DNA from: a virus
Lineage: Duplodnaviria; Caudoviricetes
Virus record (IMG/VR): IMGVR_UViG_3300017971_000079
Location: 1 to 50,991 of that record
DNA: 50,991 bases
Strand: one strand, 5' to 3'
Every line of letters starts with the position of its first letter. The first letter of the stretch is position 1. Shown one piece after another: positions 1 through 50,868 of this stretch. Under the pieces are notes generated by a model. The model worked only from the letters and a program-made list of their open reading frames with translations, ran no database searches and had not been told where the DNA came from. Made by a program: the position numbers and the translations under genes.

Positions 1-123
1 AGCCAGCGCTGCCTTTTTTTCTTGAGCTCGCTTATGACATCAGCGAGGTCGCGGCTCTCGGCCCACGGCGTCTGGTCTTCCGGCTTATCTATCAGCCACC
101 TACGCCGCCCGCCGACAGGGGCG
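1..123. repeat. Terminal direct repeat, copy 1 (identical to 50869-50991); circular assembly overlap
   Basis: 123 nt identical at both ends; an ORF reads in frame through the junction. Confidence 0.97.
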
Positions 124-3100
124 AACATGATTAAGTATCTACCCTTTAATTTAGCGCCGTCAAGAAAAATTTCTACCGCGTGCCTTCTCGCAACGCCCAT
201 CTTGTACGTACCTTTGTCAAGGGCGAAAAATTTCGAGAACTTGTTCGCGGTCGACCCCGCTTCGCCCGGCGGCGACACGTACGGCTTGCCAACGCCTACC
301 TCGAGCCACTCCTTCGGTTGCTCCAGCTTCGGCGCGAGCTCGATATTGTCGCCCTCCTTCCAATCGATGAGCTTGTCCAGGTGCTCGAGCCTGCGGTTGT
401 CCTGCGTCCTCCCGAGGAACACCGCCCAACCCCAAAGCCCTTGGCCGTCGCTCAACCGAATGTCTCCGTGTACCGAGTGCCCGGTGTCCTTCATGAGCTG
501 CTCATCGCTGAGCTTCACCTCGTCTTCGTTGAGCCCGCGCCAGTGGTGTTGATACACGAACTCGCCCTCGCCGTCCTTCGGGAACGCCTTTATCCAATCC
601 TTCTCCCAGTGCTCGTAAGCCGCCGCCGCGCGCGTGCCACCTTCCTCACGAGGTTTCAACAACGGCTTCGGCGCCTGCTTTCGAATCTCCTGCCGGAACT
701 GCCGAAGCTTGCGCTGTACCTCACCCGAATCCCCAAAGCGACGCACCGCGCTCGGATGCGGCAACACAAGGTCGACCGTGCCCACTTCCGCAAGCGCACT
801 CTCCGCGGTACGCCCAAGCGCCACGACCTTCTCGGGCTTGTACTTCTCGAGCTCGCCCTTCAACCATTCGCGCCACTCCTTCATCTCCTCGACCGTCGGC
901 TCGCGCGTTCTGCCCTTTTCGTCTTCGAGCAACACCGGTACGACGTTGGTCAATAGCACTTCGGACCTGCGGATACCGAGCGGTTTCAAATACTTTTCGT
1001 TAAACACCTCGCCCCCGGGCCCCGCCATGGGCTCGCGTCGCGCCGCTTCTATCCTGCCGGGACTCGCTCCGATGAACGCCACCTTCGCGCCCTTCGGCCC
1101 CGCCGTCGGTACCTCGGGACGCAACGCCTTGATGACGTTCGCGGGCAAGTACTCGACCTCGCCTTTGTCGTCGACTTCCTTGACCCGCAACACGAGGTTC
1201 TTCGCCGCGCGCTTGACCACGGCGTCCACCGTGTCCGGCTCGCCCTCGTACTCCCCGAGTACCCGTGGAACCCACGCCGTCAAACGCACTCCCTCCGGCC
1301 CGATGATTTTGTTCACGGTCTCCGCTTCGATAAGCACGTTGTCCCCAGGCGTAAATTTCCTCCCCGTCGCGAACGTGTCTCCAACCGTGAGCAGCTCGCC
1401 GTTGTGCTTCACGCCGTACGTGTAAACCCAAACGCCGCCCTTCGTCCGCTTGCCCTTGATCACCTGCCCTCGAACTGTCGTCGCGTTGTGGAACTTCACC
1501 CACTCGTCTCCGGTCGCAAAGTCAAGGCGGTACGGCGAATCGATTTGCTTCGCGACCATACCCTCGGACCCAGGCTCTTTACGTAACTTCTCGGTGATGC
1601 GCTCGATGTCGTCGGGCGTCTTCGCCGACACCCCTTCGACTACCTTAAGCACGTCTCCGTCTTTGATTTGCTTGAGCACTTCGAGCCGCGTCCGGAGCGA
1701 CTTGCCGTGAATGTCCCCCTTCCAGTAAACCACATCGAAGGCGTTCGCTCTCAAGTGCGAATCGTCTGGCTCGGATTTGCTGGCCAAGTACCCGGCAACC
1801 GCCTCACGCGGCAAGTGCTTCTTTCCCTCCCACGCTTCTATCTCGACATCGAGCACCGCCTTGTTCGCTGCAATTTTTTTGATGTCCTCTACCAGAGTCG
1901 GAAATCGGTCGGTGTTGTCGTCGCCGTCCTCGGAAAAAATACGAACGGTCGACCCCACCTTGTGGATTTGATGCCTGGCTCCGTCGAACTTACGTTGAAC
2001 AATTGCCGGCAACCACTTGTCCGAGCGCTCGGTGTAGAACTCGACGAGGCGCTCGATGGTCTGCGGCTCTTCGGCGAACGCCGGCCGGGTCGGTTTCGGT
2101 TGGTAGAAAAACTCACCCGGCGTCAGCACGCCGTTTTTCTTCGCGCGCTCCGCTTGCGCGCGTTGCTCCGCGCTCGCGGCCCGGGCCTGCTTCTCGATGT
2201 CGAGGCTGTCCGCCCACTCTTGCCCAGGGTCTCCACCCCACAGCAGCCACGCTATCCACTGCGCGCTCGGGTTCTTCTCGTTCTCCCAGCCCTCGTCTCT
2301 CCGGTCGACCTGCGCGCCGTGCCTCGCGAAGAACGACCGCATGCGCCCGACCGTCTCCGCACTCAAGTCGCGACGGTTGCTCAAGTCACGAGCGCGCGCA
2401 ACGCCTACCTCCGTCCCGCCGCGATTGAACTTGTCGCGAAGCCGAAGGCCACGGCTCGCCACAAGCGCCGCCGACACCGGAGGTTTGAAGCCCTCGGCTT
2501 TGACCACCCGCTCTCTGTCCTCGTACTCGGGAGGACACGTCTCTACCTTGACCACATGAGGCTCGCGTCGTCGCGCAACCAAATCAAACATCGGTATGTA
2601 ATCGGTGAAGCTCCCCTGCGGTGCGTCCAACAATTGCACCTGCGGCCCGCGCTTGTTCGGCGAGAGGAACCTCCTCAACGCAACCCCGAGGCTCCGGCCG
2701 TCCACGCCGTACGTTCCTCTCCCCGCGTCGTACTCCGACCGAATTACCACGTCCACGTCCCCGGGTTTCTCTGCTACCGCCGCACTTCCCGCCACACTTA
2801 CCCAGTCCCGGCACAGCAGAATCTCGTCGGGTATCTTCTCAAGCCGTGCGCCGATGAACTTCGGCAACTCCCCCTTGACCCCCTTGACCGAATCTTTCCT
2901 CGCCTTGTGCGTCGCTTCGAGCTTCTCCACTTCCTTCACAAGCTCGGTGCGCTCTACCTTCCTACCGCGTCGCTCGCGCTCCTGCTTCGTCCACAACGCC
3001 GCGTTCACGATGTTCTCGACAGGCTGCCGTCTTCGCTTCGCGTTGCTAAACCATTGATGCAGCCTCAACCAGACCGCATCGAGGTCTTCGTTGCCGAGGT

Positions 3101-3287
3101 TCTTCAACGCCGCGGGTTTTATCTCGGCGAGCGCGAGCTTCTCGATGACGCTTGGCTCGTCAATACGATGCGCCGCACGCCCTCCCGCTCGCGCCCTCGC
3201 CCGCTGCATCAAGGTCGCGTAGAGCCAACCGGGAATGTCCTGCTTGAACTCGTTCAACATTTCTTCGAGATATTCTCTGCTCGCCAT
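1..3287 (-). CDS. N-terminal ~1095 aa of a 1277-aa origin-spanning head-module protein (NTase-like, head-associated domain, ATP-dependent DNA ligase, UDG-like, LigD phosphoesterase-like); continues at 50868-50322
   Basis: ATG at 3287 overlaps the upstream TAA. Manual translation gives GSAAVAEKPGDVDVV (~2800-2745), RGGTEVGVARAR..WLLWGGD (~2430-2230), QRKFDGARH (~1997-1971), EGMVAK (~1565-1548), WVKF (~1503), IGASPG..TNVV..HPS (~1075-750), FVYQHH..HGDIRL..LDKGTY..KLKGRYL..WLIDK (~560-85). The track lists no terminated ORF in this frame, consistent with it being open to the edge. Confidence 0.88.
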   Translation of the reverse strand, partial: MASREYLEEMLNEFKQDIPGWLYATLMQRARARAGGRAAHRIDEPSVIEKLALAEIKPAALKNLGNEDLDAVWLRLHQWFSNAKRRRQPVENIVNAALWTKQERERRGRKVERTELVKEVEKLEATHKARKDSVKGVKGELPKFIGARLEKIPDEILLCRDWVSVAGSAAVAEKPGDVDVVIRSEYDAGRGTYGVDGRSLGVALRRFLSPNKRGPQVQLLDAPQGSFTDYIPMFDLVARRREPHVVKVETCPPEYEDRERVVKAEGFKPPVSAALVASRGLRLRDKFNRGGTEVGVARARDLSNRRDLSAETVGRMRSFFARHGAQVDRRDEGWENEKNPSAQWIAWLLWGGDPGQEWADSLDIEKQARAASAEQRAQAERAKKNGVLTPGEFFYQPKPTRPAFAEEPQTIERLVEFYTERSDKWLPAIVQRKFDGARHQIHKVGSTVRIFSEDGDDNTDRFPTLVEDIKKIAANKAVLDVEIEAWEGKKHLPREAVAGYLASKSEPDDSHLRANAFDVVYWKGDIHGKSLRTRLEVLKQIKDGDVLKVVEGVSAKTPDDIERITEKLRKEPGSEGMVAKQIDSPYRLDFATGDEWVKFHNATTVRGQVIKGKRTKGGVWVYTYGVKHNGELLTVGDTFATGRKFTPGDNVLIEAETVNKIIGPEGVRLTAWVPRVLGEYEGEPDTVDAVVKRAAKNLVLRVKEVDDKGEVEYLPANVIKALRPEVPTAGPKGAKVAFIGASPGRIEAARREPMAGPGGEVFNEKYLKPLGIRRSEVLLTNVVPVLLEDEKGRTREPTVEEMKEWREWLKGELEKYKPEKVVALGRTAESALAEVGTVDLVLPHPSAVRRFGDSGEVQRKLRQFRQEIRKQAPKPLLKPREEGGTRAAAAYEHWEKDWIKAFPKDGEGEFVYQHHWRGLNEDEVKLSDEQLMKDTGHSVHGDIRLSDGQGLWGWAVFLGRTQDNRRLEHLDKLIDWKEGDNIELAPKLEQPKEWLEVGVGKPYVSPPGEAGSTANKFSKFFALDKGTYKMGVARRHAVEIFLDGAKLKGRYLIMFAPVGGRRRWLIDKPEDQTPWAESRDLADVISELKKKRQRW

Positions 3288-4342
3288 TACTCGACCCTTT
3301 CAAGCGTCTCTGTACAACCGCAATGCGGATGCGCTGACTCCCCCGGCATGTCTACGGCACCTATGTACGCGCTCTCGTACGGCTCGCCCAACTTCGCCGT
3401 CTTGCCGTCCAGCTCCAAACAAATCTCGCAAGGGTTGTCCGGGTTCCCCGTCGGCCCCGCCGTCAACCATCGCCTCCGTACCTCGGGCAGTTTTCCCGAA
3501 TCCTGCGCTATCTTCCACGCATCATTGCGCCCCTGCGCCTGCGCCGTTATCGTCTCGGTCCTCGCTATCATCTGCGCACGCTTGCCGAGCAGCTCCTCGC
3601 GATACGCATCCCCCTGCCGCCGCACCTCGTCCTCGTCGACGCCCGCCGCGCGCAACATCTCTTTTCTGTTCTGTACCGCTTTGCTCCACCTCGGAGTCAA
3701 CCCAACGTTCGCTTTTATCTCTCCGAAAATTTCCTCAGCTCGCAACCCCCGGGAGAACCCGTCGCTCAGAACGTCGGTCACAACCTCGCGTTGACTCCAC
3801 GTCAGCCCCTCCTCTATCAAGTGCGTCGCACGTTCCTCCATCCACTTTTTCGAGTAAGGGTTGATAGGTACCATCATCTCCTCGTCCGCTGCCCTTAAGC
3901 CTTCGCTAACTGCTTTCTCTATCGTCTCCTCGCCTCCACGGTCTTCGGCAGTCTCCAAACCAAATCGCATCCTCGTCTTGAACTTCGCGTTCATACGCTC
4001 CGTTGCGTCGTCGCCCGCCTCCTGCATCACTTGCGCGTACGCGCGCATGATACGCTCGCGGAACTTCTCCCAGACCTCCGACTCCGCCTCCTGCGCCACC
4101 GGTACCGCTTCGAGTACCTTGACCGCCGACCGCTCTCTAATCGCGCGCTTCACGTCACGCTCGGCCTTCGGCGTCCACATCGTTTTCAGCGCTTCCAAGA
4201 ACGCCCTCACGAACTGTCCCTCGTTCTTCCGAGCTATCTTGTACGCCTCCCTCCCCTCGGGCGTTCCAGGGTCGCGACGGTACCACGCCTTGCGCCGGCG
4301 CTTCTGTACGCGCACTAAATGGTACTGGTCAACAAACGACAA
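3287..4342 (-). CDS. Head morphogenesis / minor capsid protein (Mu gpF / SPP1 gp7-like)
   Basis: RAQMIARTE, C-x2-C and C-terminal HPHCGC motifs; directly after the portal. Confidence 0.85.
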   Translation of the reverse strand: MSFVDQYHLVRVQKRRRKAWYRRDPGTPEGREAYKIARKNEGQFVRAFLEALKTMWTPKAERDVKRAIRERSAVKVLEAVPVAQEAESEVWEKFRERIMRAYAQVMQEAGDDATERMNAKFKTRMRFGLETAEDRGGEETIEKAVSEGLRAADEEMMVPINPYSKKWMEERATHLIEEGLTWSQREVVTDVLSDGFSRGLRAEEIFGEIKANVGLTPRWSKAVQNRKEMLRAAGVDEDEVRRQGDAYREELLGKRAQMIARTETITAQAQGRNDAWKIAQDSGKLPEVRRRWLTAGPTGNPDNPCEICLELDGKTAKLGEPYESAYIGAVDMPGESAHPHCGCTETLERVE

Positions 4343-4345
4343 CGG

Positions 4346-5779
4346 TCACGCGCTCCGCGGCAGAACGTTCCCGCAGCTCGGGCACTTCCTCGGGTTGCCT
4401 ACGTATCCTTCACCACACGTCGGACAATACCGAACCGGCGGCCGTCTTCCAGGCACCGCCCCCGGTATCACCTTCGCTATCTTCCCCTTCTGCACCTCGC
4501 CCTGCCCATCGTCTTCGGGCATCGGCAACCCCGCTACCTCGAGCAACTTGCGCCTCAGCGCCTCGTCACCCTCGGGCAGCATGTTGGTCACCGATAGCGC
4601 TTGCAGGTACTGCGCAAGCTCCGCCAAAGGCAAGCTTTCGATGTCGCCGTGTACCATCTTCGGCCAGAGCTCCCGCTTCACTCCGTTCGCCTCCATCAAT
4701 CGATGGATGCCGAACCGCGTGAACGTCGAAGCGATGTTCTTGAGGTATGCCCCAAGTGCTACACTGAACGTCTCGGTCTGAGAACTCGCAAGCGCCCAAC
4801 TCCCTACGCTCGCCATGCCGAGCTGCAGGAACTGCGCAAGCACGCTTTGAAAGATGGAGCTCTTGTAGTAGGTCTTGATTTTATCGGTGTCGAACTGCCG
4901 GTTCCCTCCACTGGTCATCAGCTTGAACTTGAACTGCGTCGGCTTACCCTCTTCATCGAGCTCGCTCGGAACAATCGCGTACTCGCGTTCATCGCGCTTC
5001 ACTTGCGCAAGCATCTTTTGTAGGTCGGAGAGCAACGCTTTGTCCTCGGAACTCGCATCCTCGCTCAACATCCGTACCGGTACTTCCATCACCGGCAACC
5101 CCGTCAGGTCGCGCTCCACGCCTATCGCCTCTATCTCCGAAATTCTCTTGAGATAGAACCAATCGATGACCGCGTTCCGGTACAGGCTCCGTCCCTGCGG
5201 GTTGCCCTTCGTCGTCGTGGTCCGAAACAGAATCGCTTTCTCTATCGGAATGTACGCGGTCTGCGCGCTCGATGGGTGCTGCTGATGCATCCCCCTCAAC
5301 CCCCCGTCGTCGTCGAACTCCCAGCGGTCTAGCGTGTTCTGCGCACGCAACGCGAACTTGCGCCAACCTACCTTTCCATCGTTGTACGCCGAGCGCTGCG
5401 CCGGGTCCTTGCCATCCATTCCTCGCCGCATCTTGTACACGACCTCGAACAGAGACCACCCGTAGGGAAACATACTCAAGACCTCGGAGATGAAATCCTC
5501 GAACGTGTGGCTCATGTCGATGACACACGAGCTCACGAACTCCGCTTGCTCTTTCGCCACCTCCCCGGGCTCGCTCGGCTCCACCCTCCATTCGACTTGT
5601 TGTACTAACGCCTCGAAGAGATACTGTATCGCGCCGATGGTCGAGCTGTTGTCCTTCATCTCTCGATAGACCTTCGGGCCGAAGTCGCCCCGCAACTTCG
5701 CGTGGAACTCCTCGTCTATCAGACCACCAAACTGCTTGAGACCCGAAAACCCCAGCGTCTTGAAATCCAGCTTCGCCAT
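4346..5779 (-). CDS. Portal protein (Mu gp29/DUF935-like) with C-terminal double-CxxC extension
   Basis: 477 aa after terL; GWSLFEVVY, GNPQGRSLYR, GSWALAS motifs. Confidence 0.85.
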   Translation of the reverse strand: MAKLDFKTLGFSGLKQFGGLIDEEFHAKLRGDFGPKVYREMKDNSSTIGAIQYLFEALVQQVEWRVEPSEPGEVAKEQAEFVSSCVIDMSHTFEDFISEVLSMFPYGWSLFEVVYKMRRGMDGKDPAQRSAYNDGKVGWRKFALRAQNTLDRWEFDDDGGLRGMHQQHPSSAQTAYIPIEKAILFRTTTTKGNPQGRSLYRNAVIDWFYLKRISEIEAIGVERDLTGLPVMEVPVRMLSEDASSEDKALLSDLQKMLAQVKRDEREYAIVPSELDEEGKPTQFKFKLMTSGGNRQFDTDKIKTYYKSSIFQSVLAQFLQLGMASVGSWALASSQTETFSVALGAYLKNIASTFTRFGIHRLMEANGVKRELWPKMVHGDIESLPLAELAQYLQALSVTNMLPEGDEALRRKLLEVAGLPMPEDDGQGEVQKGKIAKVIPGAVPGRRPPVRYCPTCGEGYVGNPRKCPSCGNVLPRSA

Positions 5780-5793
5780 GATGAATAACCCTT

Positions 5794-7200
5794 CTACGCG
5801 CTCGCCCGCGCAAAGTCAGTGGGCCGCGTCCTCGACCCCGTGAGAGGAATTACTATGTTAGAGATTGACCGTCGCGACAATCGAGAAAGCGCTTGTGTCA
5901 TCGCGTCACATTGATCGTCGTTTTTCGCGTTTGGAAAGCTTACCACCTCTTCGACGAACTCCCTCACCCAAGGCTTGCCCTCGGGTAGATACACGTTGCC
6001 AGCTTCGAGCAGCCCCGACACGGCGAGCAGACGCGCCTCCTTGCTTCCTACCGGTCGCACACCTACCACACCGTCGAGCTCGTGCTTGAGCGTCGCGAGC
6101 ACCGCCTCGCCGTTGGCCGCGCGCTCCACCACCTTGTCACGCGCAAGAGGATGCTTCGAGCTCATCGCGCGAATCGCATCGAGCGTCCCCGGGAAATCGA
6201 CCTTCGCACGGAACTGGTCGACGAGGTAGAAGTTCGGTTTGGCGTATCCCCATACCTGCCCGACCACGTAGGACGTGCCCACGGTGAACGTGAGGTCCCA
6301 CGATTGAATGAGTTGAGAACAGCGCGGGAGCTCGCGATACCAACGGAACCACGCGCGCTTGATTGCCCCGCCCTCAGGCGGCGACGGGTGCTGTTGGTAC
6401 AGACCGTTGAAGAGCTGCGTACCTAGCCCCTCCCCGGGTGCGAGCTTGATGCGCTGTAGGTCGTCGGCGTCAAAACGCTCGGGACAAAGCGCCTCGCCTG
6501 GAGCGCGACCGAGCGGGTCGTTGTCTTCGGCGACGGCCGGCAACGCGACATGCTGCCAGTCATCCGCATGCTCGTCCACGAGGTATCCCGTGAGGTCCTC
6601 TTCATGCCAGCGCGTCATGACCACCACGATGGAGCCACCGGGCTCTAGACGGGTGTACAAGTCCGCGTTGAACCGCTCGATAATTTTTCGACGCACCGTC
6701 GGAGAGTTCGCTTCCTCCCAGTCCTTTACCGGGTCGTCGATGATGATGAGCGAAGCCCCGCGACCGGTAACGCCGCCTTGCGCGCCAGCGGTCTTCATCC
6801 CCCCTCCGTCCACCGTCTCCCAATCACTGGTCTCGCGCTTCGCGTCGCTCACGCGGGTGGAGAGTAGCTCGTTGCGCTGGAGCTCGTCACGCACCTTGCG
6901 TCCCCAATGCGCGGCGAACGTGTCCGAGTACGACGTGAGAATCACCCGCTGTTCGGGGAACCATTCGAGGAACCACGTCGGGAGCCAGTGAGAGAACGCC
7001 TCGCTCTTGCCGTGCCGCGGTGGAGCATTGATGATGATGCGCGCGCCGCCGCGCACGATGGCTGGCTGAATCACCGACAGCAACAAATCGAGCCAACGAA
7101 ACGGACGCCACTGTCCGCGGGAGGCGGTCTGCGCAAACGTGCTTATATTGAGGCGCCAGCGCTCCTCAACCATCGCTTGCGCGTCGAGCGCGGTGTTCAA
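5794..7200 (-). CDS. terL: Terminase large subunit
   Basis: Walker A PPRHGKS, Walker B IIIDDP, MTRWH, YQQHP, nuclease SWD...DDQCDA. Confidence 0.96.
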   Translation of the reverse strand: MNTALDAQAMVEERWRLNISTFAQTASRGQWRPFRWLDLLLSVIQPAIVRGGARIIINAPPRHGKSEAFSHWLPTWFLEWFPEQRVILTSYSDTFAAHWGRKVRDELQRNELLSTRVSDAKRETSDWETVDGGGMKTAGAQGGVTGRGASLIIIDDPVKDWEEANSPTVRRKIIERFNADLYTRLEPGGSIVVVMTRWHEEDLTGYLVDEHADDWQHVALPAVAEDNDPLGRAPGEALCPERFDADDLQRIKLAPGEGLGTQLFNGLYQQHPSPPEGGAIKRAWFRWYRELPRCSQLIQSWDLTFTVGTSYVVGQVWGYAKPNFYLVDQFRAKVDFPGTLDAIRAMSSKHPLARDKVVERAANGEAVLATLKHELDGVVGVRPVGSKEARLLAVSGLLEAGNVYLPEGKPWVREFVEEVVSFPNAKNDDQCDAMTQALSRLSRRSISNIVIPLTGSRTRPTDFARASA

Positions 7201-8077: not shown

Positions 8078-8146
8078 GCCTGCGGAGCTTTTTTTGGGGG
8101 GGCAAGAGCTTGACAGCTACCCGAGGAGGTGTTACTGCTTTTTTTC

Positions 8147-8260
8147 AATGGCGCGGAGAACACAGCAGCTCGATTTTTGACGGACACCCTGCGGCGGGGA
8201 GTCGCCGACCTCTCCGGTCAGCCGTGCCATTCTCCCCGCCGCAGGGGCCGGCTTTTTTTT
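8147..8260 (+). ncRNA. Structured leader RNA / attenuator (P4 CI- or P1 C4-like architecture) before the primase-helicase
   Basis: 8147-8156 pairs with 8222-8231; 8187-8201 is perfectly complementary to 8232-8246; T8 run at 8253-8260; TTGACA at 8110-8115. Confidence 0.5.
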
Positions 8261-8275
8261 GCGGGAGGCTCTTGA

Positions 8276-10780: not shown

Positions 10781-11529
10781 GCTCATTTTCTCAGGCAGTT
10801 TGGAAGAGCGCGGGCTGTCCCACAGCTCCCGGCCGCGAACCGACTTCTGCCGCTGGAGCATGTGCGGTTTGCGGGGAAACGTGTGACGGAGGCTTGGTCC
10901 CCCGCAAGATCGCGCTGCCCGCGAGCTTCGCCAACTACGACATGTTGCGAGGGCCTTCGTCGGCGGGGGTCTGTGTCGCCTGCGCGTGGGCGATGGCGGG
11001 ACGTCCGCCCGACGGCTTGCGCATGTGGACGGTTGTAGCAGGCAAGGGGGCCGGAGAATGGAGCCGCGAGTACGTTGTCGGCCCGCAGCTCGGGCAAGAC
11101 GCCGTCGCTATTCACGGCAGCGACCACTCCCAGGTATTGCGGATGTTGCTCGACCCACCCGACGCTGAGTGGGGAGTTGCGCTTGCAGACAGCGGCAAGC
11201 TCCATGTCGTTCCGTGGGGTCGGTTGAACGCGACACAAGCACAGTGGACGGTTCGGCTCGAAGCGCTGGATGTCGTGGCGGAGGCCGGAAGATTTCGAGA
11301 GGTAGTGAGAGCCGCGGCGAAGTTACTGGCTGCGGGTTTTCTGCGGTCGCACATTGCGGAGTGCGATACCAGCCCTGCGTTGCTCAATAAGTGTGGGGCC
11401 GCGGTGTGGCGAGAGAACATCGAGACAATGAAAAAGTACGGCCGGGGGGGAGCAGGAAGACTGGCGTTGTTCTTACTCGGTCAATCGGCAAGGAAAAAAA
11501 CAAAGGAGGTCTGGAATGAGTGGTGTTGA
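10777..11529 (+). CDS. csf1: Type IV CRISPR-associated large subunit, Csf1 (Cas8-like)
   Basis: CAVCG...CVACAW zinc motifs, LLDPP, SGKLH; first gene of a coupled csf cluster. Confidence 0.72.
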   Translation: MSSFSQAVWKSAGCPTAPGREPTSAAGACAVCGETCDGGLVPRKIALPASFANYDMLRGPSSAGVCVACAWAMAGRPPDGLRMWTVVAGKGAGEWSREYVVGPQLGQDAVAIHGSDHSQVLRMLLDPPDAEWGVALADSGKLHVVPWGRLNATQAQWTVRLEALDVVAEAGRFREVVRAAAKLLAAGFLRSHIAECDTSPALLNKCGAAVWRENIETMKKYGRGGAGRLALFLLGQSARKKTKEVWNEWC

Positions 11530-11887
11530 GAACGACGCTGCTATCACCGACGTTGCGGTGGAATTCGCGGCGGAAATCATGGGAGCGGTCAACAAGGACG
11601 TGGTGAAGCCGCGGGACTGGTGGTCGAGATGCCGAGCTGCGCTCGAAGCGGCGGCGTCGGCGTCCGAGACGTGGGCGCAGTTCGTTTCGAGGTTCGGACA
11701 GAAGATGCAGATAGAGAGCATTCCCTCCGAGATCGCGACAGACGTGGCATTGCTCGAAGCGCATCTGATAGAAAACAAATGGTGGCCGCGGTTCCGCTAT
11801 CTCGTGCAACGAGATGCGTTGTACATCTCCGCGATGGCCCAAGTCCGGCGCAAAGAGCGCTTCGGGAAAAAAGCGAAGGGAGAGTGA
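11516..11887 (+). CDS. cas11: Small helical subunit (Cas11-like) of type IV-B
   Basis: 123-aa helical-looking protein between csf1 and csf2, the usual IV-B position. Confidence 0.6.
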   Translation: MSGVENDAAITDVAVEFAAEIMGAVNKDVVKPRDWWSRCRAALEAAASASETWAQFVSRFGQKMQIESIPSEIATDVALLEAHLIENKWWPRFRYLVQRDALYISAMAQVRRKERFGKKAKGE

Positions 11888-11888
11888 C

Positions 11889-14643: not shown

Positions 14644-14783
14644 CTATCCGCAGGAGGCGCTGACGACTGCCGCGCTCAGCGATTGCCTGGCGGTGCGACG
14701 TCTACGCTGGCTCGTGCGTGTGATGCACACCGAGGACCGACGCGTACTGTTTCTCGGAGCGGCGTCGCGGTTGCGGAGGAGAG

Positions 14784-15047
14784 ATGAACTACGGAGATAC
14801 CACGACATCTGCGGAGAGTTACGGGCGGTCATCGATAGAGCGAGCACTCCGAGCGGCGTGGCGGCTGGTCGAGGCGCGGAGGCCGCTGCTGCTCCACGGC
14901 GAGCTGCTGCCGGGGGTGCCACGTCGGACGGTGGACAGGACGGTGGGTCGGCTGCTCCGGGCGGGGTGGCCGGTGGAGGTGAGCTACGACGACGAGGGCA
15001 GAGCGTGGGTATCGCTGGGCCGTGGTTTGTGGCGCCGCATGCGGTGA
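14784..15047 (+). CDS. Hypothetical protein, possible winged HTH
   Basis: Strong GGAGG RBS; VPRRTVDRTVGRLLRAGWPV resembles a wHTH. Confidence 0.45.
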   Translation: MNYGDTTTSAESYGRSSIERALRAAWRLVEARRPLLLHGELLPGVPRRTVDRTVGRLLRAGWPVEVSYDDEGRAWVSLGRGLWRRMR

Positions 15048-47418: not shown

Positions 47419-48381
47419 TTACGACATCACGTTGTTGAAAAACACACCGAGGTCGCTTGCCACGAGCTTCAAATCGTAGGCCATCGTGCCCTCGATTCTG
47501 TCGCTCTCCAACTCCTCCATCCGGAACCGCTTGATGCGCGTGCCTTCCGCCGTCGCTCCGAGGTAGCCCTGCCACGAGAACGTGTACCCGGCGCTCGGCT
47601 GCATGATGGACGGCCTCGGCGCCGCGTAGCAAAGGAACGCGTCCTTCGAGTACAAGAACGACATCACCGGAGTCGCGCCCTCGGCCGCAGTGTTCTCCAC
47701 CGCGCTCGCAATCAGCACCCGGTCGAGCTCCAGAGCCGCCGCCACGAGGTCCAGCGTCACGATGCCCTTCTCGGTGTACTTGATGCGGTCGAGCAGCTCG
47801 GAGTGGTCCTGCAAGACCGTCCACACGTCTCTCGACAGAACCAACGTGTTTGGGCGATACCCCGTCTTTTTGTACACGGAATCAATTTGCGCACGGATGT
47901 TTTTGAACGGGTACGAGCTGCCCGCGTCCCACAACGGAGACGGGGTGATGTCGGTCCCGGTAGTGCTCCCCGTCCACTTGCCCGTGGTGAAGTACTCCGC
48001 CGCCCAGTCCTTCTCACGCCGGAGCGCGAGCTGGCGGGTGACGAACTCCGTCGCCTCGGAATCTAAGTTGATGGGAGCGTCCGCGTTGCTGCGAATCTGG
48101 TCGTCGACGTCCTTGTGCAAAGCCTTCGCCTTGCACGCGTAGTCGGCGGTCGTCAGTGTGTACCCGGACCCCGCGGACTCGGTACCCGGCGCGCGGTCTT
48201 GCGCGTCCGTCCGGAACCACTGCCCCTTCTCGTACACGAAGTACTGGTCGGATTTCTTCATGACGGGGATGTTCGGAAACACCTTCGTCGCGATGAAATC
48301 CTTCTGGTCCTGAAGGTACGCGATTGAGATATTGGTGAGCGGTCTGTTTACGTGGACCGCACTTGCTGTCGGTTGTGGCAT
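47419..48381 (-). CDS. Major capsid protein
   Basis: LTNISIAY, RAPGT, RPNTLVL; AAGGAGG RBS; position. Confidence 0.88.
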   Translation of the reverse strand: MPQPTASAVHVNRPLTNISIAYLQDQKDFIATKVFPNIPVMKKSDQYFVYEKGQWFRTDAQDRAPGTESAGSGYTLTTADYACKAKALHKDVDDQIRSNADAPINLDSEATEFVTRQLALRREKDWAAEYFTTGKWTGSTTGTDITPSPLWDAGSSYPFKNIRAQIDSVYKKTGYRPNTLVLSRDVWTVLQDHSELLDRIKYTEKGIVTLDLVAAALELDRVLIASAVENTAAEGATPVMSFLYSKDAFLCYAAPRPSIMQPSAGYTFSWQGYLGATAEGTRIKRFRMEELESDRIEGTMAYDLKLVASDLGVFFNNVMS

Positions 48382-48393
48382 CGTTCTCCTCCT

Positions 48394-49392
48394 TTAACCG
48401 TTCAGCGTCGGTCCATCGAGAACCGCCGAAAAGATGTCCCCGCTGGTCGCGCTCTGAATCGCGCGCCCTCGCGAGTACGTGCCCGGATTGCTGCCCGTGA
48501 TGGTTTCGACCGAGAGCCCTGTCTTGGCGAGCGCGTTGCCCGAGATGAAATCGAGCTCGCTCGTGGTCCCCGTGGTCGGCGACGTAATCGTGAACGACCC
48601 GTCCGCGTTGACCGCGACTTCCGCCGTAGTGTCCGCTTCGATGACCGTCTCGATTTCCGCGGCCGTCACTTCGTCGATGTTCCCGACGTCACCCGTACCT
48701 GCGGTCGAGCTGCCCCACGTGAGGTTACCAGTACCCGCGCCGGTCGCAATGTCGAAGTCGGTGCCCTGTCCATCGGTCGTCAGAACCACCTGACCTCCGA
48801 CAACATTCGCCGACACACCTTTCGCCTGCGCGTTGATTCCCGCGGCCACATGCAAGGCCGTGGTCGTCGCGCCGGAGAACGTGACCGTCTGCACCTCACC
48901 GTCGTAGATGCCGCCGGTGATAGTGATGGTCATGGTCTTGGTGTCCTGGTCGGCCACCGGGTAGGAGGTCGTGTCGGTGATGGTCGCGCCCGCCGCGTCC
49001 CACGTCGCCGTCGCGTTGCCGACGTTGTCGACATCAATGACCATCGTGTCCCCGGCCGACAGGTTGAACGGACCGGCCGAACTGGTCTTGGTCGCTGCGG
49101 TCGGCGCGGCCGCGGCCGTCTTGGCCGTGCCTGTCGCCGTGGTCATGATGCGGTCGCCTGCGGTAATCGCTCCACCGGCGACGAGCTTGGTCACTCCTCC
49201 ATTAGCAAGAATGACCGCTTTGTCCGCGGCGTCGGGGTCGTTCTGAATCACGCCGTCGACGTACTCGCCTTCGGCCGTCGCCTGGACCACCTTGCCGCTA
49301 GTGTTGATTTTCCCGAACCGGAACTGAGCAGAACTGAGGTCGGCTCCTGCTACGAGTCCCGGCACGGTGCTCAACTTGCCTTCGTATGCCAT
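48394..49392 (-). CDS. Capsid cement/decoration protein with large inserted domains
   Basis: Cement-like N-terminus (AGGAITAGD) and C-terminus (GRAIQSA..GDIFSAVL) flank a ~210-aa insert. Confidence 0.65.
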   Translation of the reverse strand: MAYEGKLSTVPGLVAGADLSSAQFRFGKINTSGKVVQATAEGEYVDGVIQNDPDAADKAVILANGGVTKLVAGGAITAGDRIMTTATGTAKTAAAAPTAATKTSSAGPFNLSAGDTMVIDVDNVGNATATWDAAGATITDTTSYPVADQDTKTMTITITGGIYDGEVQTVTFSGATTTALHVAAGINAQAKGVSANVVGGQVVLTTDGQGTDFDIATGAGTGNLTWGSSTAGTGDVGNIDEVTAAEIETVIEADTTAEVAVNADGSFTITSPTTGTTSELDFISGNALAKTGLSVETITGSNPGTYSRGRAIQSATSGDIFSAVLDGPTLNG

Positions 49393-49407: not shown

Positions 49408-50325
49408 CTAGTTCTGTTCCGGATGCTCGTCGAGGTACTCCTGATAGAGCTTCGCACCCTCGGCGGTTTTGATGACCCGCGCGAACGCCTGCTCGGACGA
49501 AAGCTCCTCGGTCGATTTCTGCACGAGACCCGCGGCCATCTTCTCGAGCTTGGCCATCGCGCTGCCTTCGCTGCCTTCGCCGAATCGCGCGCCCGCCTCG
49601 GCGAACATCGCGCTCTTCTGCATGGCTTCCGAAGTCGCCTTCATCTGCGCGAACTGCGTCTCCGCCAACTTCGGGTCGACCTTCTCGAGCTTGAGCAGCA
49701 AGGCCGCCTGCTCCTCGGCCGTCGAGCCGGGACAGTACGCGAGCTCGTCCTTCGCCTTCGAGATGAGCTCCTGACGCCGGCGCTCTTCGCGCTCGGTGTC
49801 GAGGCTCTTGCGAATCTCCTCGTTCTGTTTCGTGAGGTTCGCGACCTGCTCGTCATAGGCCTTCCGGATTTCCTCGAACCTCTTCTCGACCTCGGTCAAC
49901 TCCGTCGGAGAGCCTTCGCCCTCATCCTTCTTGACCGGGGCTTTCGCCTTCTGTGGCTCGGGATACTTGTCCTTCATGTCCTCGTCCTCCTCTTTGGCTT
50001 TTGCCTTCGGCGCCGGGTACCCGATTGCCGAAGCCAGCTTGTCGAGGGCGTCCTTGGGAATCTCGTCCTTGAAGCCCGACATCAAGCGCAGCGCGCCCTT
50101 GACCGCAGCTTGAGCCTTGTCGCTCAGCTTGGCCTTGTCGAACCATTCGACGAGTTTGTCCTCTTCATCGATCTCGGTTTCGAGAACGGCTTTGAGAATT
50201 TCCTCGTGGTCCATGTCATTCTCCTGTTTGAAAATTGGGAACGGTTTCTTCTTGTTCGCGCCCTTGTCTACGAGAGACACTTCTTCGGGCGTGAGGTTGC
50301 TTAGTTCGGTCAGCGGCTTGCTCAT
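49408..50325 (-). CDS. Scaffolding-type protein
   Basis: EVSLVDKGAN N-terminus, charged coiled coil, upstream of the capsid genes. Confidence 0.7.
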   Translation of the reverse strand: MSKPLTELSNLTPEEVSLVDKGANKKKPFPIFKQENDMDHEEILKAVLETEIDEEDKLVEWFDKAKLSDKAQAAVKGALRLMSGFKDEIPKDALDKLASAIGYPAPKAKAKEEDEDMKDKYPEPQKAKAPVKKDEGEGSPTELTEVEKRFEEIRKAYDEQVANLTKQNEEIRKSLDTEREERRRQELISKAKDELAYCPGSTAEEQAALLLKLEKVDPKLAETQFAQMKATSEAMQKSAMFAEAGARFGEGSEGSAMAKLEKMAAGLVQKSTEELSSEQAFARVIKTAEGAKLYQEYLDEHPEQN

Positions 50326-50868
50326 GCCGACGCCCTTTCAACGAGGTCGACAAAGGTCACGGAAGGCATCTCTTGACGAGACATACGGCGCCGCATCCCG
50401 AATCCTCCGGGGCTGAACGCCGTGATTTTTCCCGCCTTGTACAACTTCCACAAACCCTCGTCGAGCTTCACTCCGAGCAACCATGCCCCGGAATGAACTA
50501 CTTCGCTTCCAAACTTGCGCCGGTAAACGCGATGCGGCTCGCCTCGGCAAGCCTTCAAGTAGTCCTCTCTACTCGGATACTGCTCAACCGAGTTCTCGAC
50601 TACTTGCGCGTTCGTCTTGGCCTTGTGTTGAAGTCCGATAGTCCGAGAGTTCGTCATGAACCAATGCGCCGCGTTCTCCACTTCGTCCGGGGGGGTCCAG
50701 TCCTTGTGAGCGTCCGGCTCCGCGCCGTTCGCTCCATACGGGTCCATGACCACTCCGTACACAATCCTCTTAACGGGATCTGACTTGGCGATTGGAACTG
50801 ACTTACTGACGACTTTCCCCGACCGCACGTCAAACACTTGCGGCCGCTCTCCGGGCTTCGACCAATAA
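50322..50868 (-). CDS. C-terminal XkdF-like prohead protease domain of the 1277-aa origin-spanning protein
   Basis: RIVYGVV..P..DAH.D..AAHWF..GLQH..GAWLLGVK..W..G.ITAFSPGG; in frame with the 3287-1 segment (..RQRWL|YWSKPGERPQVFDV..). Confidence 0.88.

What the first reader, a model, noticed from the sequence alone, without database searches (positions are those of the whole stretch)
1..3287. Hidden 1277-aa protein fusing DNA-repair-type enzymes to the prohead protease
Seen: one minus-strand frame runs 3287 to 1 and on through 50868 to 50322 (3834 nt). Domain order by motif: Pol-beta-type NTase (GS-x8-DVDVV), a head-associated WGGD domain, ATP-dependent ligase (KFDG, EGMVAK, WVK), UDG-like, LigD 3'-phosphoesterase-like, XkdF-like protease. 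It lies between the MuF-like and scaffold genes. Established: head-module proteins of some phages carry fused enzymatic domains. Inference: the protease domain targets and releases an end-healing/ligation kit packaged in the virion, for genome repair, circularisation or counter-defence on entry.
Basis: partly seen in the sequence, partly recalled or inferred. Interest (0 to 1): 0.85.

Follow-up and report, generated by a model that had tools for sequence, protein, structure and literature searches.

The report
Head protease carrying DNA-repair enzymes
An uncultured marine phage makes its only capsid-maturation protease as the last domain of a 1277-residue protein that also carries a DNA ligase, a uracil-glycosylase-like domain and a DNA-end-cleaning enzyme, probably so that these enzymes are built into the virus head, a design that is common in metagenomes and has never been tested at the bench.

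Summary
The window has an exact 123-nt terminal repeat. One minus-strand frame runs 3287→1 and 50868→50322 (3834 nt, 1277 aa, a single stop at its end), and it equals a protein already held in a public collection.

Confirmed domains:
- ATP-dependent DNA ligase (Pfam E 6.5e-25)
- UDG-superfamily domain (E 3.3e-19; motif A reads GASPG, and the domain has no cysteines)
- LigD-type 3'-phosphoesterase, by fold only (the 7 best PDB matches are all LigD PE)
- C-terminal XkdF protease (E 1.6e-15)

The "WGGD" domain recurs in head proteins. The Pol-beta NTase call rests on a conserved GS…DxD motif only.

The gene sits at TerL–portal–MuF–THIS–scaffold-like p305–scaffold–capsid, and it carries the genome's only recognisable prohead protease and only ATP-dependent ligase. 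In 62 IMG/VR relatives, 60 keep all detected modules in one frame, and the head-gene order is kept in 39 of 46 loci upstream and 39 of 41 downstream.

A complex model (0.71; best control 0.00) places the N-terminal motif of p305 in the protease cleft.

Packaging, cleavage and delivery remain inferred. Polyvalent proteins ending in an assemblin-like peptidase were described in 2017, but I did not find this repair cargo in print. This scan noted the same kind before on other DNA. I rate it a new variant of a known kind.

The parts
1..123 (.). Terminal repeat, identical to 50869-50991. It marks the circular or concatemer junction that the ORF crosses.
   Evidence: exact 123-nt repeat. (IMG/VR class 'direct terminal repeats', 100% complete). 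(contigs run on past base 50991).
2883..3287 (-). Residues 1-135: conserved helical leader of unknown function. The ATG at 3287-3285 overlaps the MuF stop (TAATG).
   Evidence: pLDDT 80-92, all helical. (0 of 31 PDB matches at E<=0.001). (kept even in the short UDG-XkdF forms). (no atlas lead). (start context).
2502..2870 (-). Residues 140-262: small NTase-like domain with GS-x8-DxD. Family membership is not shown.
   Evidence: G167, S168, D177, D179 in 25 of 26 sequences; G/D/D invariant in 63 sequences. (no Pfam or PDB match). (weak hints to NTP_transf_2, Polbeta and DUF6932).
2208..2498 (-). Residues 264-360: 'WGGD' domain, an optional insert that recurs in head proteins.
   Evidence: phrog_2859, E 1.1e-12. 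(rows P0044-P0122, many fused to portal, MuF or S78 protease-capsid proteins). (absent from most family members). (N-terminus of the 974-aa capsid protein of Roseobacter phage CRP-821).
1128..2195 (-). Residues 365-720: ATP-dependent DNA ligase (adenylation domain plus an OB-like region).
   Evidence: PF01068, E 6.5e-25, residues 428-599. (3gde 8e-14; 2cfm aligned over 428-669). (K433, G436, E575, K580, K598 in 26 of 26). (the only PF01068 match in the genome).
678..1118 (-). Residues 724-870: UDG-superfamily domain, nearest to family 4/UdgX but with GASPG in motif A and no cysteines.
   Evidence: PF03167, E 3.3e-19. (UdgX and family-4 models, all below their cut-offs). (1l9g, 1vk2, 6ail). (A741, S742, H844 in 26 of 26; 0 Cys in the window's copy).
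18..650 (-). Residues 880-1090: LigD-type 3'-phosphoesterase fold.
   Evidence: model pLDDT 88.7. (the 7 matches at E<=0.001 are all LigD PE structures; the next match has E 0.034). (5dmp, E 0.01, aligning HxDxR). (H914, H915, H940, D942, R944 in 26 of 26). (Pfam LigD_N below its cut-off).
50322..50858 (-). Residues 1100-1277: XkdF-type prohead protease with a conserved C-terminal tail (MPxVxF[VI][DE]L). The stop codon TGA at 50322-50324 overlaps the next gene's ATG (ATGA).
   Evidence: PF14550, 57 bits; the only match in the genome. (motifs shared with the proteases of three cultured phages). (H1177, E1187, S1248 in 26 of 26; N1188 where 25 of 26 have S).
49408..50325 (-). p305: scaffold-like protein whose N-terminal motif (…EEVSLVDKGANKKK…) is the motif that canonical XkdF proteases carry in cis. 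It is the predicted docking partner of the protease domain.
   Evidence: N-terminus matches phrog_3017 positions 4-53. (motif conserved in 28 relatives). (motif in cis in Lactococcus 56701 and Bacillus B83; in 0 of 40 polyproteins). (complex score 0.71; best of 3 controls 0.00).
3287..4342 (-). MuF-like head morphogenesis gene directly upstream.
   Evidence: phrog_3517, E 6.7e-23. (Phage_Mu_F, E 7.9e-8).
4346..7200 (-). Mu-type portal (4346-5779) and large terminase (5794-7200).
47419..49392 (-). Scaffold (48394-49392, phrog_673) and major capsid protein (47419-48381, phrog_1005).

Best explanation
This is the phage's prohead-protease gene, extended at its N-terminus by a train of DNA-repair-type domains. 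It is a 'polyvalent' head protein.

Domain order: helical leader, small GS…DxD NTase-like domain, head-associated WGGD domain, ATP-dependent DNA ligase, UDG-superfamily domain, LigD-type 3'-phosphoesterase, XkdF (assemblin-like) protease.

Proposed mechanism:
1. The C-terminal domain is the only recognisable head protease, so it must enter the procapsid with the scaffold. The model suggests that it does so by taking the N-terminal motif of the next gene's scaffold-like product (p305) into its cleft.
2. The fused enzymes are carried in with it.
3. After assembly the protease removes the scaffold and possibly cuts the train.
4. The folded enzymes stay in the head and leave with the DNA at the next infection.
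5. There they act on the incoming genome: they clean blocked 3' ends, perhaps add a nucleotide, seal nicks or breaks, and deal with uracil. This is a base-excision and break-repair kit, used either against damage gathered outside the cell or against damage inflicted by host defences.

Shown here: the ORF, four domain identities, the gene's position, its conservation, and the absence of any other recognisable protease or ATP-dependent ligase in the genome.

Inferred: incorporation of the cargo into the head, cleavage, ejection, every enzymatic activity, and the substrate.
For: ORF and domains
- The ORF and its junction are real.
- Ligase, UDG and XkdF pass Pfam's cut-offs.
- The PE fold is supported: all 7 PDB matches at E<=0.001 are LigD PE structures, on a model with pLDDT 88.7. 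H914/H915, H940, D942 and R944 are invariant in 26 of 26 sequences.
- Ligase motifs I, IV and V are invariant in 26 of 26.

Role in the head module
- This is the sole protease found. PF14550 matches once. S78, ClpP and S49 match nowhere, while their control genomes do match.
- This is the sole ATP-dependent ligase, and it is encoded in the late head operon, start/stop-coupled on both sides (TAATG and ATGA).
- Cultured phages have the same gene order with a plain XkdF protease in this slot.

Conservation in 62 IMG/VR relatives
- 60 keep all detected modules in one frame.
- 39 of 46 loci with at least 1.5 kb upstream have TerL, portal or MuF upstream on the same strand.
- 39 of 41 loci with at least 1.5 kb downstream and an XkdF domain have p305, scaffold or capsid genes downstream.

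Cargo is modular and centred on DNA
- By my hand count of the 120 XkdF fusions listed, 86 carry UDG, 36 carry a ligase, 12 carry class-I methyltransferases and 8 carry 2H/LigT domains.
- Of 63 proteins that share the NTase-like domain, 34 have a ligase and 28 have XkdF.
- Relatives add metallo-beta-lactamase-fold domains, a canonical LigD_N domain (56.9 bits) and a weak pyrimidine-dimer glycosylase match.

Complex model
- Score 0.71; best of 3 controls 0.00. That mark was reached by 58 of 80 solved complexes and by 2 of 110 mismatched pairs. The runs agree in at least 81% of contacts, and the partner's pLDDT is at least 60.
- p305 residues 3-22 lie on XkdF residues 1147-1185 and 1242-1262, next to the invariant H1177 and S1248.
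- No solved XkdF structure was found by sequence.

In print
Against: - No result here shows that any part of the protein is in a virion.
- No cut-site-like copy of the p305 motif was found in the train. The best PSSM score was 1.9, against a shuffle mean of 2.1 with sd 3.7.
- The window's protease has N1188 where 25 of 26 relatives and 3 of 3 cultured XkdF proteases have Ser. If that Ser is catalytic, this copy could be inactive.
- UDG motif A lacks the acidic residue that I recall for family 4 (GASPG; A741 and S742 are in 26 of 26, and the flanking G/P positions vary in a few rows). The domain also has no Fe-S cysteines.
- Only 4 of the 6 essential PE residues named in PMC3082917 can be placed. 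The second His and the Tyr cannot.
- The NTase call is unverified.
- The complex model has two weaknesses. My chain 1 started at residue 1096 and so left out a degenerate copy of the motif that lies in cis just upstream. Canonical XkdF proteins carry the motif in cis, so the pass may echo packing within one chain.
- Many copies of a 140-kDa passenger would take up capsid volume beside a 50.9-kb genome. This last point is my own reasoning and was not computed.
Confidence: 0.5

Rival explanations
1. Late cytoplasmic repair, not cargo. The polyprotein is only a way to co-express the enzymes with the head genes. It is cut in the cytoplasm, or it works at the portal during packaging, removing uracil and sealing nicks in replicated DNA so that intact genomes are packaged. 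The enzymes are not carried to the next cell.
For: - The ligase is the phage's only ATP-dependent ligase and is expressed with late genes.
- No cargo-retention or cut-site signal was found.
- I recall that nicked DNA hampers packaging in some phages. This was not checked here.
Against: - A covalent link to the one protease that must be inside the procapsid is kept in 60 of 62 relatives and across many kinds of cargo. Mere co-expression would not require that.
- The same kinds of cargo are also fused to portal proteins (P0217). The WGGD domain is fused to portal, MuF and capsid proteins.
Confidence: 0.2
2. Genome circularisation kit. The ligase, phosphoesterase and NTase join the two ends of the injected linear genome in an NHEJ-like reaction.
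For: - The domain set resembles LigD (PE plus LIG, plus a nucleotide-adding domain).
- Relatives add metallo-beta-lactamase-fold domains, which may process DNA ends.
Against: - The phage has no Ku (0 matches, while the control genomes match).
- UDG is the commonest partner of this protease (86 of 120) and has no role in end joining.
- The short forms have UDG and PE but no ligase.
- The Mu-type portal, MuF and this terminase type suggest headful packaging to me. With headful packaging, circularisation uses terminal redundancy. This is recalled and was not tested.
Confidence: 0.1
3. Mostly non-catalytic passengers. The UDG-like, PE-like and NTase-like domains are DNA-binding modules that serve as internal head proteins, for example to organise or escort the DNA, and are not enzymes.
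For: - UDG motif A lacks the acidic residue, and the domain has no cysteines.
- PE lacks an identifiable second His and Tyr.
- The NTase-like domain matches no curated family.
Against: - The ligase catalytic lysine and motifs IV and V are invariant in 26 of 26.
- The PE metal ligands H, H, D and the phosphate-binding R are invariant in 26 of 26.
- GS…DxD is invariant in 63 sequences.
- Conservation of this kind is what one expects of active sites.
Confidence: 0.1
4. Assembly or gene-calling artefact. The long frame would arise from a false junction or from fused neighbouring genes.
For: The frame crosses the ends of the record.
Against: - The terminal repeat is exact.
- The same 1277-aa protein is on record elsewhere.
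- 60 of 62 relatives have the modules in one frame, inside their contigs.
- Contigs from two runs continue past the window's end.
Confidence: 0.01

Closest known systems
Polyvalent proteins of phages and conjugative elements, the rare subset ending in an assemblin-like peptidase (Iyer, Burroughs, Anand, de Souza, Aravind 2017, PMC5512222; passages seen)
   Same: - Many enzymatic domains in one polypeptide.
- Encoded among late virion genes.
- The peptidase is at the C-terminus.
- Predicted to be loaded into the head and delivered with the DNA.
- The cargo is shuffled between relatives.
   Different: - In the paper's main text, 'DNA ligase' occurs 0 times, 'uracil' occurs only in a reference, and 'phosphoesterase' refers to 2H domains. 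The ligase, UDG and LigD-PE cargo is therefore not described there. The paper's supplementary architecture lists could not be seen and may hold it.
- Here the peptidase is the phage's own and only prohead protease, in the protease slot. It is not an extra domain.
Bacterial LigD (NHEJ enzyme with POL, PE and LIG domains, working with Ku; PE structures 3N9B, 3P43, 3P4H, 5DMP; PMC3082917, passages seen)
   Same: - An ATP-dependent ligase and a PE-fold 3'-end-healing domain sit in one polypeptide.
- The H…HxDxR metal and phosphate site is kept.
- A nucleotide-adding domain may be present.
   Different: - There is no AEP-type POL domain. The candidate nucleotide-adding domain is a roughly 120-residue GS…DxD domain of unproven fold.
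- The phage has no Ku.
- The PE domain has a ~19-residue longer spacer between the two metal-binding histidines (24 residues here against 5 in CkoPE/MbaPE), and the second His and the Tyr cannot be identified.
- Pfam LigD_N is not reached (16.8 vs 31.1 bits).
- The domain order differs, and the protein is fused to UDG and a capsid protease.
Canonical XkdF-type prohead protease-scaffold proteins of cultured phages (Bacillus phage vB_BtS_B83 gp09, Lactococcus phage 56701 gp35, Arthrobacter phage Mufasa8 gp4)
   Same: - The same Pfam family, and shared motifs (D..D, E..AAH, QH, VES, G.W, FS.GG).
- The same slot: TerL-portal-MuF-protease-capsid.
   Different: - The cultured proteins are 126-398 aa with no enzymatic cargo.
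- The B83 and 56701 proteins carry the N-terminal VSYVDKAANKK motif in cis and continue into a scaffold region. Here that motif and the scaffold-like region sit on the next gene (p305), and the protease is at the end of the cargo train.
Capsid-packaged, DNA-co-injected phage proteins (T4 Alt and IPI, P1 DarA/DarB, N4 virion RNA polymerase), named as exemplars in PMC5512222
   Same: The concept is the same: proteins built into the head and delivered with the genome to act first in the new cell. Relatives of this protein carry DNA methyltransferase domains (PF02086, PF00145), and I recall that DarB does too.
   Different: I recall that those proteins are targeted by short peptides or partner proteins, not by covalent fusion to the protease. 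None of them is a ligase, PE or UDG set. For this family, packaging is not shown.
Base-excision repair set of African swine fever virus (minimal Pol X, ligase, AP endonuclease).
   Same: A virus-encoded minimal Pol-beta-type enzyme and a ligase devoted to repairing the virus's own genome.
   Different: It is a eukaryotic virus with separate genes, no fusion to a capsid protease, and an AP endonuclease, which I did not find here.

Membership tests
ATP-dependent DNA ligase (PF01068, nucleotidyltransferase domain) | Profile match above the curated cut-off | tested here: met
   88.4 bits against a cut-off of 26.2, covering profile positions 22-203 of 204; archaeal and human ligase structures at E 8e-14 to 1e-10.
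ATP-dependent DNA ligase (PF01068, nucleotidyltransferase domain) | Motif I KxDG with the adenylated lysine, motif IV EGxxxK and motif V WxK (motif definitions recalled) | tested here: met
   KFDG at 433, SEGMVAK at 574, WVKFH at 596. K433, G436, E575, K580 and K598 are present in 26 of 26 sequences.
ATP-dependent DNA ligase (PF01068, nucleotidyltransferase domain) | C-terminal OB domain with motif VI | tested here: inconclusive
   the alignment to 2cfm runs to residue 669, into the OB region. I could not recognise a motif VI in the block shown.
Uracil-DNA glycosylase superfamily, family 4 / UdgX | Superfamily profile above its cut-off, and motif B (HPS) | tested here: met
   PF03167, 69.8 bits against 24.3. 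HPSAV at 844, with H844 in 26 of 26.
Uracil-DNA glycosylase superfamily, family 4 / UdgX | Motif A GE[AG]PG with the acidic residue (definition recalled) | tested here: not met
   the motif reads GASPG. A741 and S742 are present in 26 of 26 sequences.
Uracil-DNA glycosylase superfamily, family 4 / UdgX | Four cysteines of the 4Fe-4S cluster (definition recalled) | tested here: not met
   0 Cys in residues 720-870 of the window's protein. 21 of 26 family members have none, and none has four.
Uracil-DNA glycosylase superfamily, family 4 / UdgX | NCBIfam family-level cut-offs | tested here: not met
   UdgX 69.2 bits against 189.95; family 4 59.1 against 125.3; archaeal type 4 55 against 250.
LigD 3'-phosphoesterase (PE) superfamily | Eight-stranded barrel PE fold | tested here: met
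   model pLDDT 88.7. The only 7 PDB matches at E<=0.001 are 3p43, 3n9d, 3n9b_A, 3n9b_B, 3p4h, 5dmp and 2lj6 (probability 1.00; TM-score on the target 0.56-0.82). The next match has E 0.034.
LigD 3'-phosphoesterase (PE) superfamily | Metal ligands His, His, Asp and the phosphate-binding Arg (PMC3082917) | tested here: met
   One search aligns HGDIR with the HYDLR of 5dmp. H914/H915, H940, D942 and R944 are present in 26 of 26. Which of H914 and H915 is the first ligand is inferred from its position only.
LigD 3'-phosphoesterase (PE) superfamily | Second phosphate-binding His and the Tyr (H-x3-Y; PMC3082917) | tested here: inconclusive
   the corresponding stretch reads ELAPKLEQPKEW, with K987 invariant and no conserved His or Tyr. 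I could not obtain a residue-level structural superposition.
LigD 3'-phosphoesterase (PE) superfamily | Pfam LigD_N above its cut-off | tested here: not met
   11.4 and 16.8 bits against 31.1. LigD_N hits occur in related proteins: one of 63 proteins sharing the NTase-like domain at E 2e-7, and L058 ORF2 at 56.9 bits. Whether these hits lie on the homologue of this window's PE-like domain was not checked.
XkdF-type prohead protease (PF14550, Peptidase_S78_2) | Profile above its cut-off | tested here: met
   57.7 and 57.4 bits against 24, covering profile positions 5-122 of 126.
XkdF-type prohead protease (PF14550, Peptidase_S78_2) | Gene in the protease slot of the head module | tested here: met
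   (TerL, portal, MuF, this gene, p305, scaffold, capsid). (the same order in cultured phages). (39 of 46 loci upstream and 39 of 41 downstream).
XkdF-type prohead protease (PF14550, Peptidase_S78_2) | Conserved His and Ser candidates for the catalytic pair. The true catalytic residues of this family are not known to me. | tested here: inconclusive
   H1177 and S1248 are present in 26 of 26, but the window has N1188 where 25 of 26 have Ser. One search places the bound peptide next to residues 1172-1177 and 1247-1250.
Pol-beta-type nucleotidyltransferase superfamily | hG[GS]-x9-13-Dh[DE]h signature (recalled) | tested here: met
   AGS-x8-DVDVV. G, D and D are invariant in 63 sequences. G167, S168, D177 and D179 are present in 25 of 26. 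The spacer is one residue shorter than the range I recall.
Pol-beta-type nucleotidyltransferase superfamily | Profile or fold match to a curated NTase family | tested here: inconclusive
   No Pfam match at E<=10 and no PDB match by profile. The fold model has pLDDT below 50 in this region. Hints only: one of 63 relatives hits NTP_transf_2 at E 2.6e-5 (place of the hit not seen); Polbeta at 17 bits against 26.9, on the GS…DxD stretch of P0284; DUF6932 at 25.5 bits against 27, on the same domain in L058; and an atlas cluster scoring 0.88.
Polyvalent proteins (Iyer et al. 2017) | Several unrelated enzymatic domains in one polypeptide of a phage, encoded among virion genes, with an assemblin-like peptidase at the C-terminus | tested here: met
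   That XkdF is assemblin-like rests on its Pfam name (S78_2) and on an overlapping S78 match in relative L042.
Polyvalent proteins (Iyer et al. 2017) | Delivered into the host with the DNA | not testable with these tools
   This needs virion proteomics and infection experiments.
Bacterial LigD / NHEJ system | AEP polymerase domain and a Ku partner | tested here: not met
   No polymerase-domain family appears. Ku (PF02735) has 0 matches in the phage, while the control genomes match. A host Ku cannot be excluded.

The most novel reading that the evidence does not exclude
The phage loads a self-contained repair machine into its capsid by welding it to the maturation protease: a ligase that can be pre-adenylated, a 3'-end cleaner, a minimal nucleotide adder and a uracil-recognising domain. 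In this lineage the protease's own N-terminal docking motif has been moved onto the scaffold protein p305, so that scaffold and cargo-protease recognise each other in trans. On entry the kit mends deaminated bases, nicks and blocked breaks in the virion DNA, or breaks made by host nucleases, before any phage gene is expressed. For the single-turnover ligase step this could happen even inside the ATP-free capsid. That would make virion-borne genome repair a common strategy of environmental phages.
Probability: 0.3. Interest if true: 0.8.

Novelty: new variant of a known kind. Interest (0 to 1): 0.6.

Why it matters
If the cargo really travels in the head, this would be a widespread and untested way for phages to bring DNA-repair or counter-defence enzymes into a cell ahead of gene expression. 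One search found 130 XkdF fusions, one search found 105 clusters sharing the NTase-like domain, and one search found 62 IMG/VR loci.

It would bear on three questions:
- how virions survive damage in the environment;
- how incoming DNA escapes nucleases and deaminases;
- how proteins are targeted into capsids, where fusion to the protease could serve as a natural cargo-loading handle for engineering.

The predicted contact between the protease cleft and the N-terminal motif of the scaffold-like neighbour gives a concrete interface that can be tested by mutation. The UDG-like and PE-like domains are also divergent members of their folds (GASPG and no Fe-S cluster; a missing His/Tyr pair), and their chemistry is worth measuring.

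Tried and rejected
1. Fold of residues 1-400. The model was poor beyond residue 140 (mean pLDDT 55.5), and Foldseek against the PDB gave 0 of 31 matches at E<=0.001. It therefore gives neither support for nor evidence against an NTase fold, and the helical leader stays unassigned. The atlas search of residues 1-135 gave no usable hit.

2. Profile of the leader plus NTase-like unit (A5, 10 sequences) against PDB sequences. Only spurious RNA polymerase beta rows appeared, at E 0.15, and they lay on the XkdF part of two members.

3. Pfam at E<=10 on residues 140-265, 1-140 and 260-386. Nothing useful came back.

4. Idea: the conserved C-terminal tail (…SVTFVDLVE…), or the linkers, repeat the p305 N-motif and mark cut sites. 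A PSSM of the motif core, built from 28 sequences, scored 1.9 at best in the polyprotein (at residue 1266), against a shuffle maximum of 2.1 ± 3.7. I dropped the idea.

5. Idea: PHROG labels such as 'DNA methyltransferase' (phrog_1530) and 'RNA ligase' (phrog_14859) show enzyme-XkdF fusions in cultured phages. In Lactococcus phage 56701 the gene so named is a 349-aa protein with XkdF near its N-terminus, sitting in the protease slot. I treat the label as doubtful and did not use it.

6. No cultured phage has the architecture. For the first 1095 residues, 0 of 32 matching records cover at least 80%. For the C-terminal part, 0 of 46 do.

7. Literature. Searches found no paper on a ligase, UDG or PE cargo fused to a prohead protease. 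For most hits I saw listings only. Papers outside the held library, and the supplements of PMC5512222, were not seen.

8. Read laying used contigs, not raw reads. It cannot show what follows base 50991, only that the contigs go on.

9. I did not determine the packaging strategy from the terminase. The nearest cultured TerL proteins are at most 43% identical.

Full report
**1. The observation**

The window (50,991 nt, 59% G+C) carries an exact 123-nt terminal repeat: bases 1-123 equal 50869-50991. IMG/VR classes the record as a complete virus with direct terminal repeats.

On the minus strand one ORF runs from the ATG at 3287 off the window's start. The same frame comes in from the window's end and stops at 50322. 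Joined across the repeat this gives 3834 nt and 1277 codons, with one stop at the end.

The joined product is letter for letter a protein already held in the public protein collection: P0003, 1277 aa, seen on 2 contigs, the longer 51,011 nt. GC3 is 0.76 against GC2 of 0.43, as in the phage's other genes.

The junction is supported in two ways. In 60 of 62 related IMG/VR loci every detected module lies in a single stop-to-stop frame inside the contig. Logan contigs of 33,940 and 17,363 nt from two runs of two studies cover 49500-50991 without a difference and continue beyond base 50991. Those runs may be the sources of the record, so they are not independent.

The ORF is not 'hidden' from gene callers that see a rotated contig.

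**2. The domains**

- Pfam places a DNA_ligase_A_M domain at residues 428-599 (E 6.5e-25), a UDG domain at 729-852 (E 3.3e-19) and Peptidase_S78_2 (XkdF) at residues 1122-1253 (E 1.6e-15). All three are above their curated cut-offs.
- PDB sequence search agrees for the ligase (3gde 8e-14; 2cfm over 428-669) and for UDG (1l9g, 1vk2, the UdgX structure 6ail).
- NCBIfam finds the same kinds, but every family-level model stays below its cut-off.
- Ligase motifs I, IV and V are invariant in 26 of 26 aligned relatives.

The UDG domain is atypical. Motif A reads GASPG (A741 and S742 in 26 of 26), where I recall GE[AG]PG for family 4. The window's domain also has no cysteine, so it cannot hold the Fe-S cluster of family 4 or UdgX. 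Motif B (HPS, H844) and N781 are kept.

Residues 880-1090 match no Pfam family above its cut-off; LigD_N scores 16.8 bits against 31.1. An AlphaFold2 model built on 35 sequences is confident (pLDDT 88.7). Its only seven PDB matches at E<=0.001 are LigD 3'-phosphoesterase structures (3p43, 3n9d, 3n9b chains A and B, 3p4h, 5dmp, 2lj6), and the eighth match has E 0.034. phmmer aligns HGDIR with the HYDLR of 5dmp.

PMC3082917 names six essential PE residues: two His and an Asp on manganese, an Arg and a His on phosphate, and a Tyr (passages). The first four can be placed (H914/915, H940, D942, R944) and are invariant in 26 of 26. The second His and the Tyr cannot be placed. The stretch reads ELAPKLEQPKEW, with K987 invariant.

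**3. The N-terminal third**

Residues 1-135 form a confidently predicted helical bundle. It has no PDB match and no family assignment. It is kept even in short relatives that go straight from the leader to UDG.

Residues 140-262 carry AGS-x8-DVDVV. A search of 1.84 billion representative proteins found 105 clusters with this domain. In the 63 shortest of these, G, D and D are invariant. Of those 63, 34 also have a ligase, 28 have XkdF, 13 have a methyltransferase and 10 have UDG.

Evidence that this domain is a Pol-beta-type nucleotidyltransferase is thin:
- no Pfam or PDB profile match;
- a poor fold model;
- sub-threshold hints to Polbeta, DUF6932 and NTP_transf_2;
- an atlas neighbour below the level at which such hits mean much.

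I call it NTase-like and leave membership open.

Among P0004-P0019 the blastp alignment runs through it only in P0005 and P0008, and of the IMG/VR loci only L006, L007 and L045 carry it. Elsewhere the domain is fused to portal, MuF and S78-protease-capsid proteins (rows P0044-P0122). It also opens the 974-aa 'major capsid protein' of the cultured Roseobacter phage CRP-821. 'Head-associated' is therefore a fair description, but its function is unknown.

**4. Context**

The gene order on the minus strand is: large terminase, Mu-type portal, MuF, this gene, a 305-aa acidic helical protein (p305), a phrog_673 scaffold and the major capsid protein. The start overlaps the MuF stop (TAATG), and the stop overlaps the p305 start (ATGA).

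PF14550 matches the genome once. S78, ClpP and S49 models match nowhere, although their control genomes do match. This is therefore the only recognisable prohead protease. It is also the only PF01068 ligase, and the phage has no Ku.

Cultured phages with plain XkdF proteases have the same order, TerL-portal-MuF-XkdF-capsid.

Among the 62 IMG/VR relatives, 39 of 46 loci with at least 1.5 kb of upstream flank have TerL, portal or MuF upstream on the same strand. Of the 41 loci with at least 1.5 kb downstream and an XkdF domain, 39 have p305, scaffold or capsid genes downstream. Note that the loci were found with a leader motif and a PE motif, so the prevalence of those two modules in this set is biased.

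**5. The family**

A search with the C-terminal part for longer proteins returned 130 fusions. By my hand count of the 120 listed rows, 86 carry UDG, 36 carry a ligase, 12 carry class-I methyltransferases and 8 carry 2H/LigT phosphoesterases. Relatives also carry Dam- and C5-type DNA methyltransferases, metallo-beta-lactamase-fold domains, a canonical LigD_N domain (56.9 bits), a LAGLIDADG domain and a weak pyrimidine-dimer glycosylase match.

The cargo is thus modular, and nearly all of it is concerned with DNA ends, bases or modification. No cultured phage has the whole architecture (0 of 32 and 0 of 46 records).

**6. A link to head assembly**

p305 and its 27 aligned relatives start with a strongly conserved motif, …L..L…EVSLVD.GANKKK.FPIFK. 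The XkdF proteins of Bacillus phage B83 and Lactococcus phage 56701 carry the same motif in cis at their own N-termini. None of 40 family polyproteins matches the motif pattern. Only a degenerate remnant lies before the protease domain.

A complex prediction of XkdF (residues 1096-1277) with p305 gave a score of 0.71 (runs 0.71, 0.74, 0.70), against a best of 3 controls of 0.00. That mark was reached by 58 of 80 solved complexes and by 2 of 110 mismatched pairs. The runs agree in at least 81% of contacts, and the partner's pLDDT is at least 60.

Only p305 residues 3-22 touch. They lie along residues 1147-1185 and 1242-1262, and p305 residue 16 sits next to 1172-1174 and 1247-1250. That places it beside the invariant H1177 and S1248.

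Three caveats apply:
- My cut at residue 1096 removed the remnant motif that lies in cis.
- The pass may echo the packing within one chain of canonical XkdF proteins.
- The alignments were my own, so the calibration counts hold only roughly.

No solved relative was found by sequence. I read the result as support, not proof, that the protease domain engages the scaffold-like neighbour either as a substrate or as a docking strand.

**7. Mechanism and rivals**

My best reading (confidence 0.5) is that the train is carried into the procapsid by its protease end, and that the enzymes stay in the head and act on the genome at the next infection.

The domain set is what base-excision and break repair need: base recognition, 3'-end cleaning, perhaps gap filling, and sealing. 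This is why I prefer 'repair of the incoming genome' to circularisation.

Against this reading:
- nothing shows packaging;
- no cut-site motif was found in the linkers;
- the window's copy has N1188 where 25 of 26 relatives and three cultured proteases have Ser;
- the UDG and PE active sites are incomplete by the textbook definitions;
- the NTase is unproven.

The rivals are a late cytoplasmic or portal-side repair role (0.2), end joining for circularisation (0.1), mainly non-catalytic DNA-binding passengers (0.1) and an artefact (0.01).

**8. What is known**

Iyer et al. 2017 (PMC5512222; passages seen) defined polyvalent proteins. They state that an assemblin-like peptidase, where present, is always at the C-terminus and probably processes proteins during virion assembly. 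The general design is therefore in print.

Their main text never mentions a DNA ligase, and it mentions uracil only in a reference. Their supplementary lists were not available to me. Five further searches found nothing on this cargo.

This scan has noted the same kind of protein on other genomes several times. Those notes prompted me to look up the 'assemblin' passage, which I then read myself.

My verdict is a new variant of a known kind.

Noticed in passing
window 50592-50594 (residue 1188 of the polyprotein): The window's XkdF domain has Asn where 25 of 26 relatives and 3 of 3 cultured XkdF proteases have Ser (the 'VES' motif). The next residue is Ser. Contigs from two runs show no difference here. 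Whether this Ser is catalytic is unknown.
   Followed up: partly
window 49408-50325 (-), first ~33 residues of p305; L002:3962-5011 and L003:3456-4652: The N-terminal motif that canonical XkdF protease-scaffold proteins carry in cis sits here on the separate downstream gene. It looks as if the ancestral gene order motif-protease-scaffold had been rearranged so that the protease ends the cargo train and the motif heads the scaffold-like protein.
   Followed up: partly
L067:3022-5946 (Roseobacter phage CRP-821): The WGGD domain forms the N-terminus of a 974-aa protein annotated as major capsid protein. The protein is probably a multi-domain fusion, and this is a cultured system in which the domain could be studied.
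   Followed up: no
L002:3962-5011 (Lactococcus phage 56701, DS56701_35): A 349-aa gene in the protease slot, with an XkdF domain near its N-terminus, is annotated 'DNA methyltransferase'. The label of phrog_1530 seems to derive from such records and looks like a misannotation.
   Followed up: partly
L063:5798-10639, L058:983-5966, L052:6998-11608: Relatives combine the NTase-like, ligase and PE set with metallo-beta-lactamase-fold domains. One carries a LAGLIDADG domain (possibly an intein or homing endonuclease) and one has a weak pyrimidine-dimer glycosylase match. L058 has the set split over two frames, with a canonical LigD_N domain (56.9 bits).
   Followed up: partly
protein P0217 (410 aa): The NTase-like domain also occurs fused behind the C-terminal part of a Mu-type portal. 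This is another head-protein anchor for the same cargo domain.
   Followed up: no
window 49500-50991 in runs X1 and X2: Near-identical phage DNA (no differing letter over 1492 nt) is held by a seawater metagenome run of 2021 and a sediment metagenome run of 2018, from two studies. Either run may be the record's source.
   Followed up: no
window 8110-24171: First-stage notes on this genome list a type IV-B-like csf operon with a radical SAM gene, a sigma54-like promoter, a hammerhead-like motif, tRNA-like elements and a pentamer array. I did not examine any of them.
   Followed up: no
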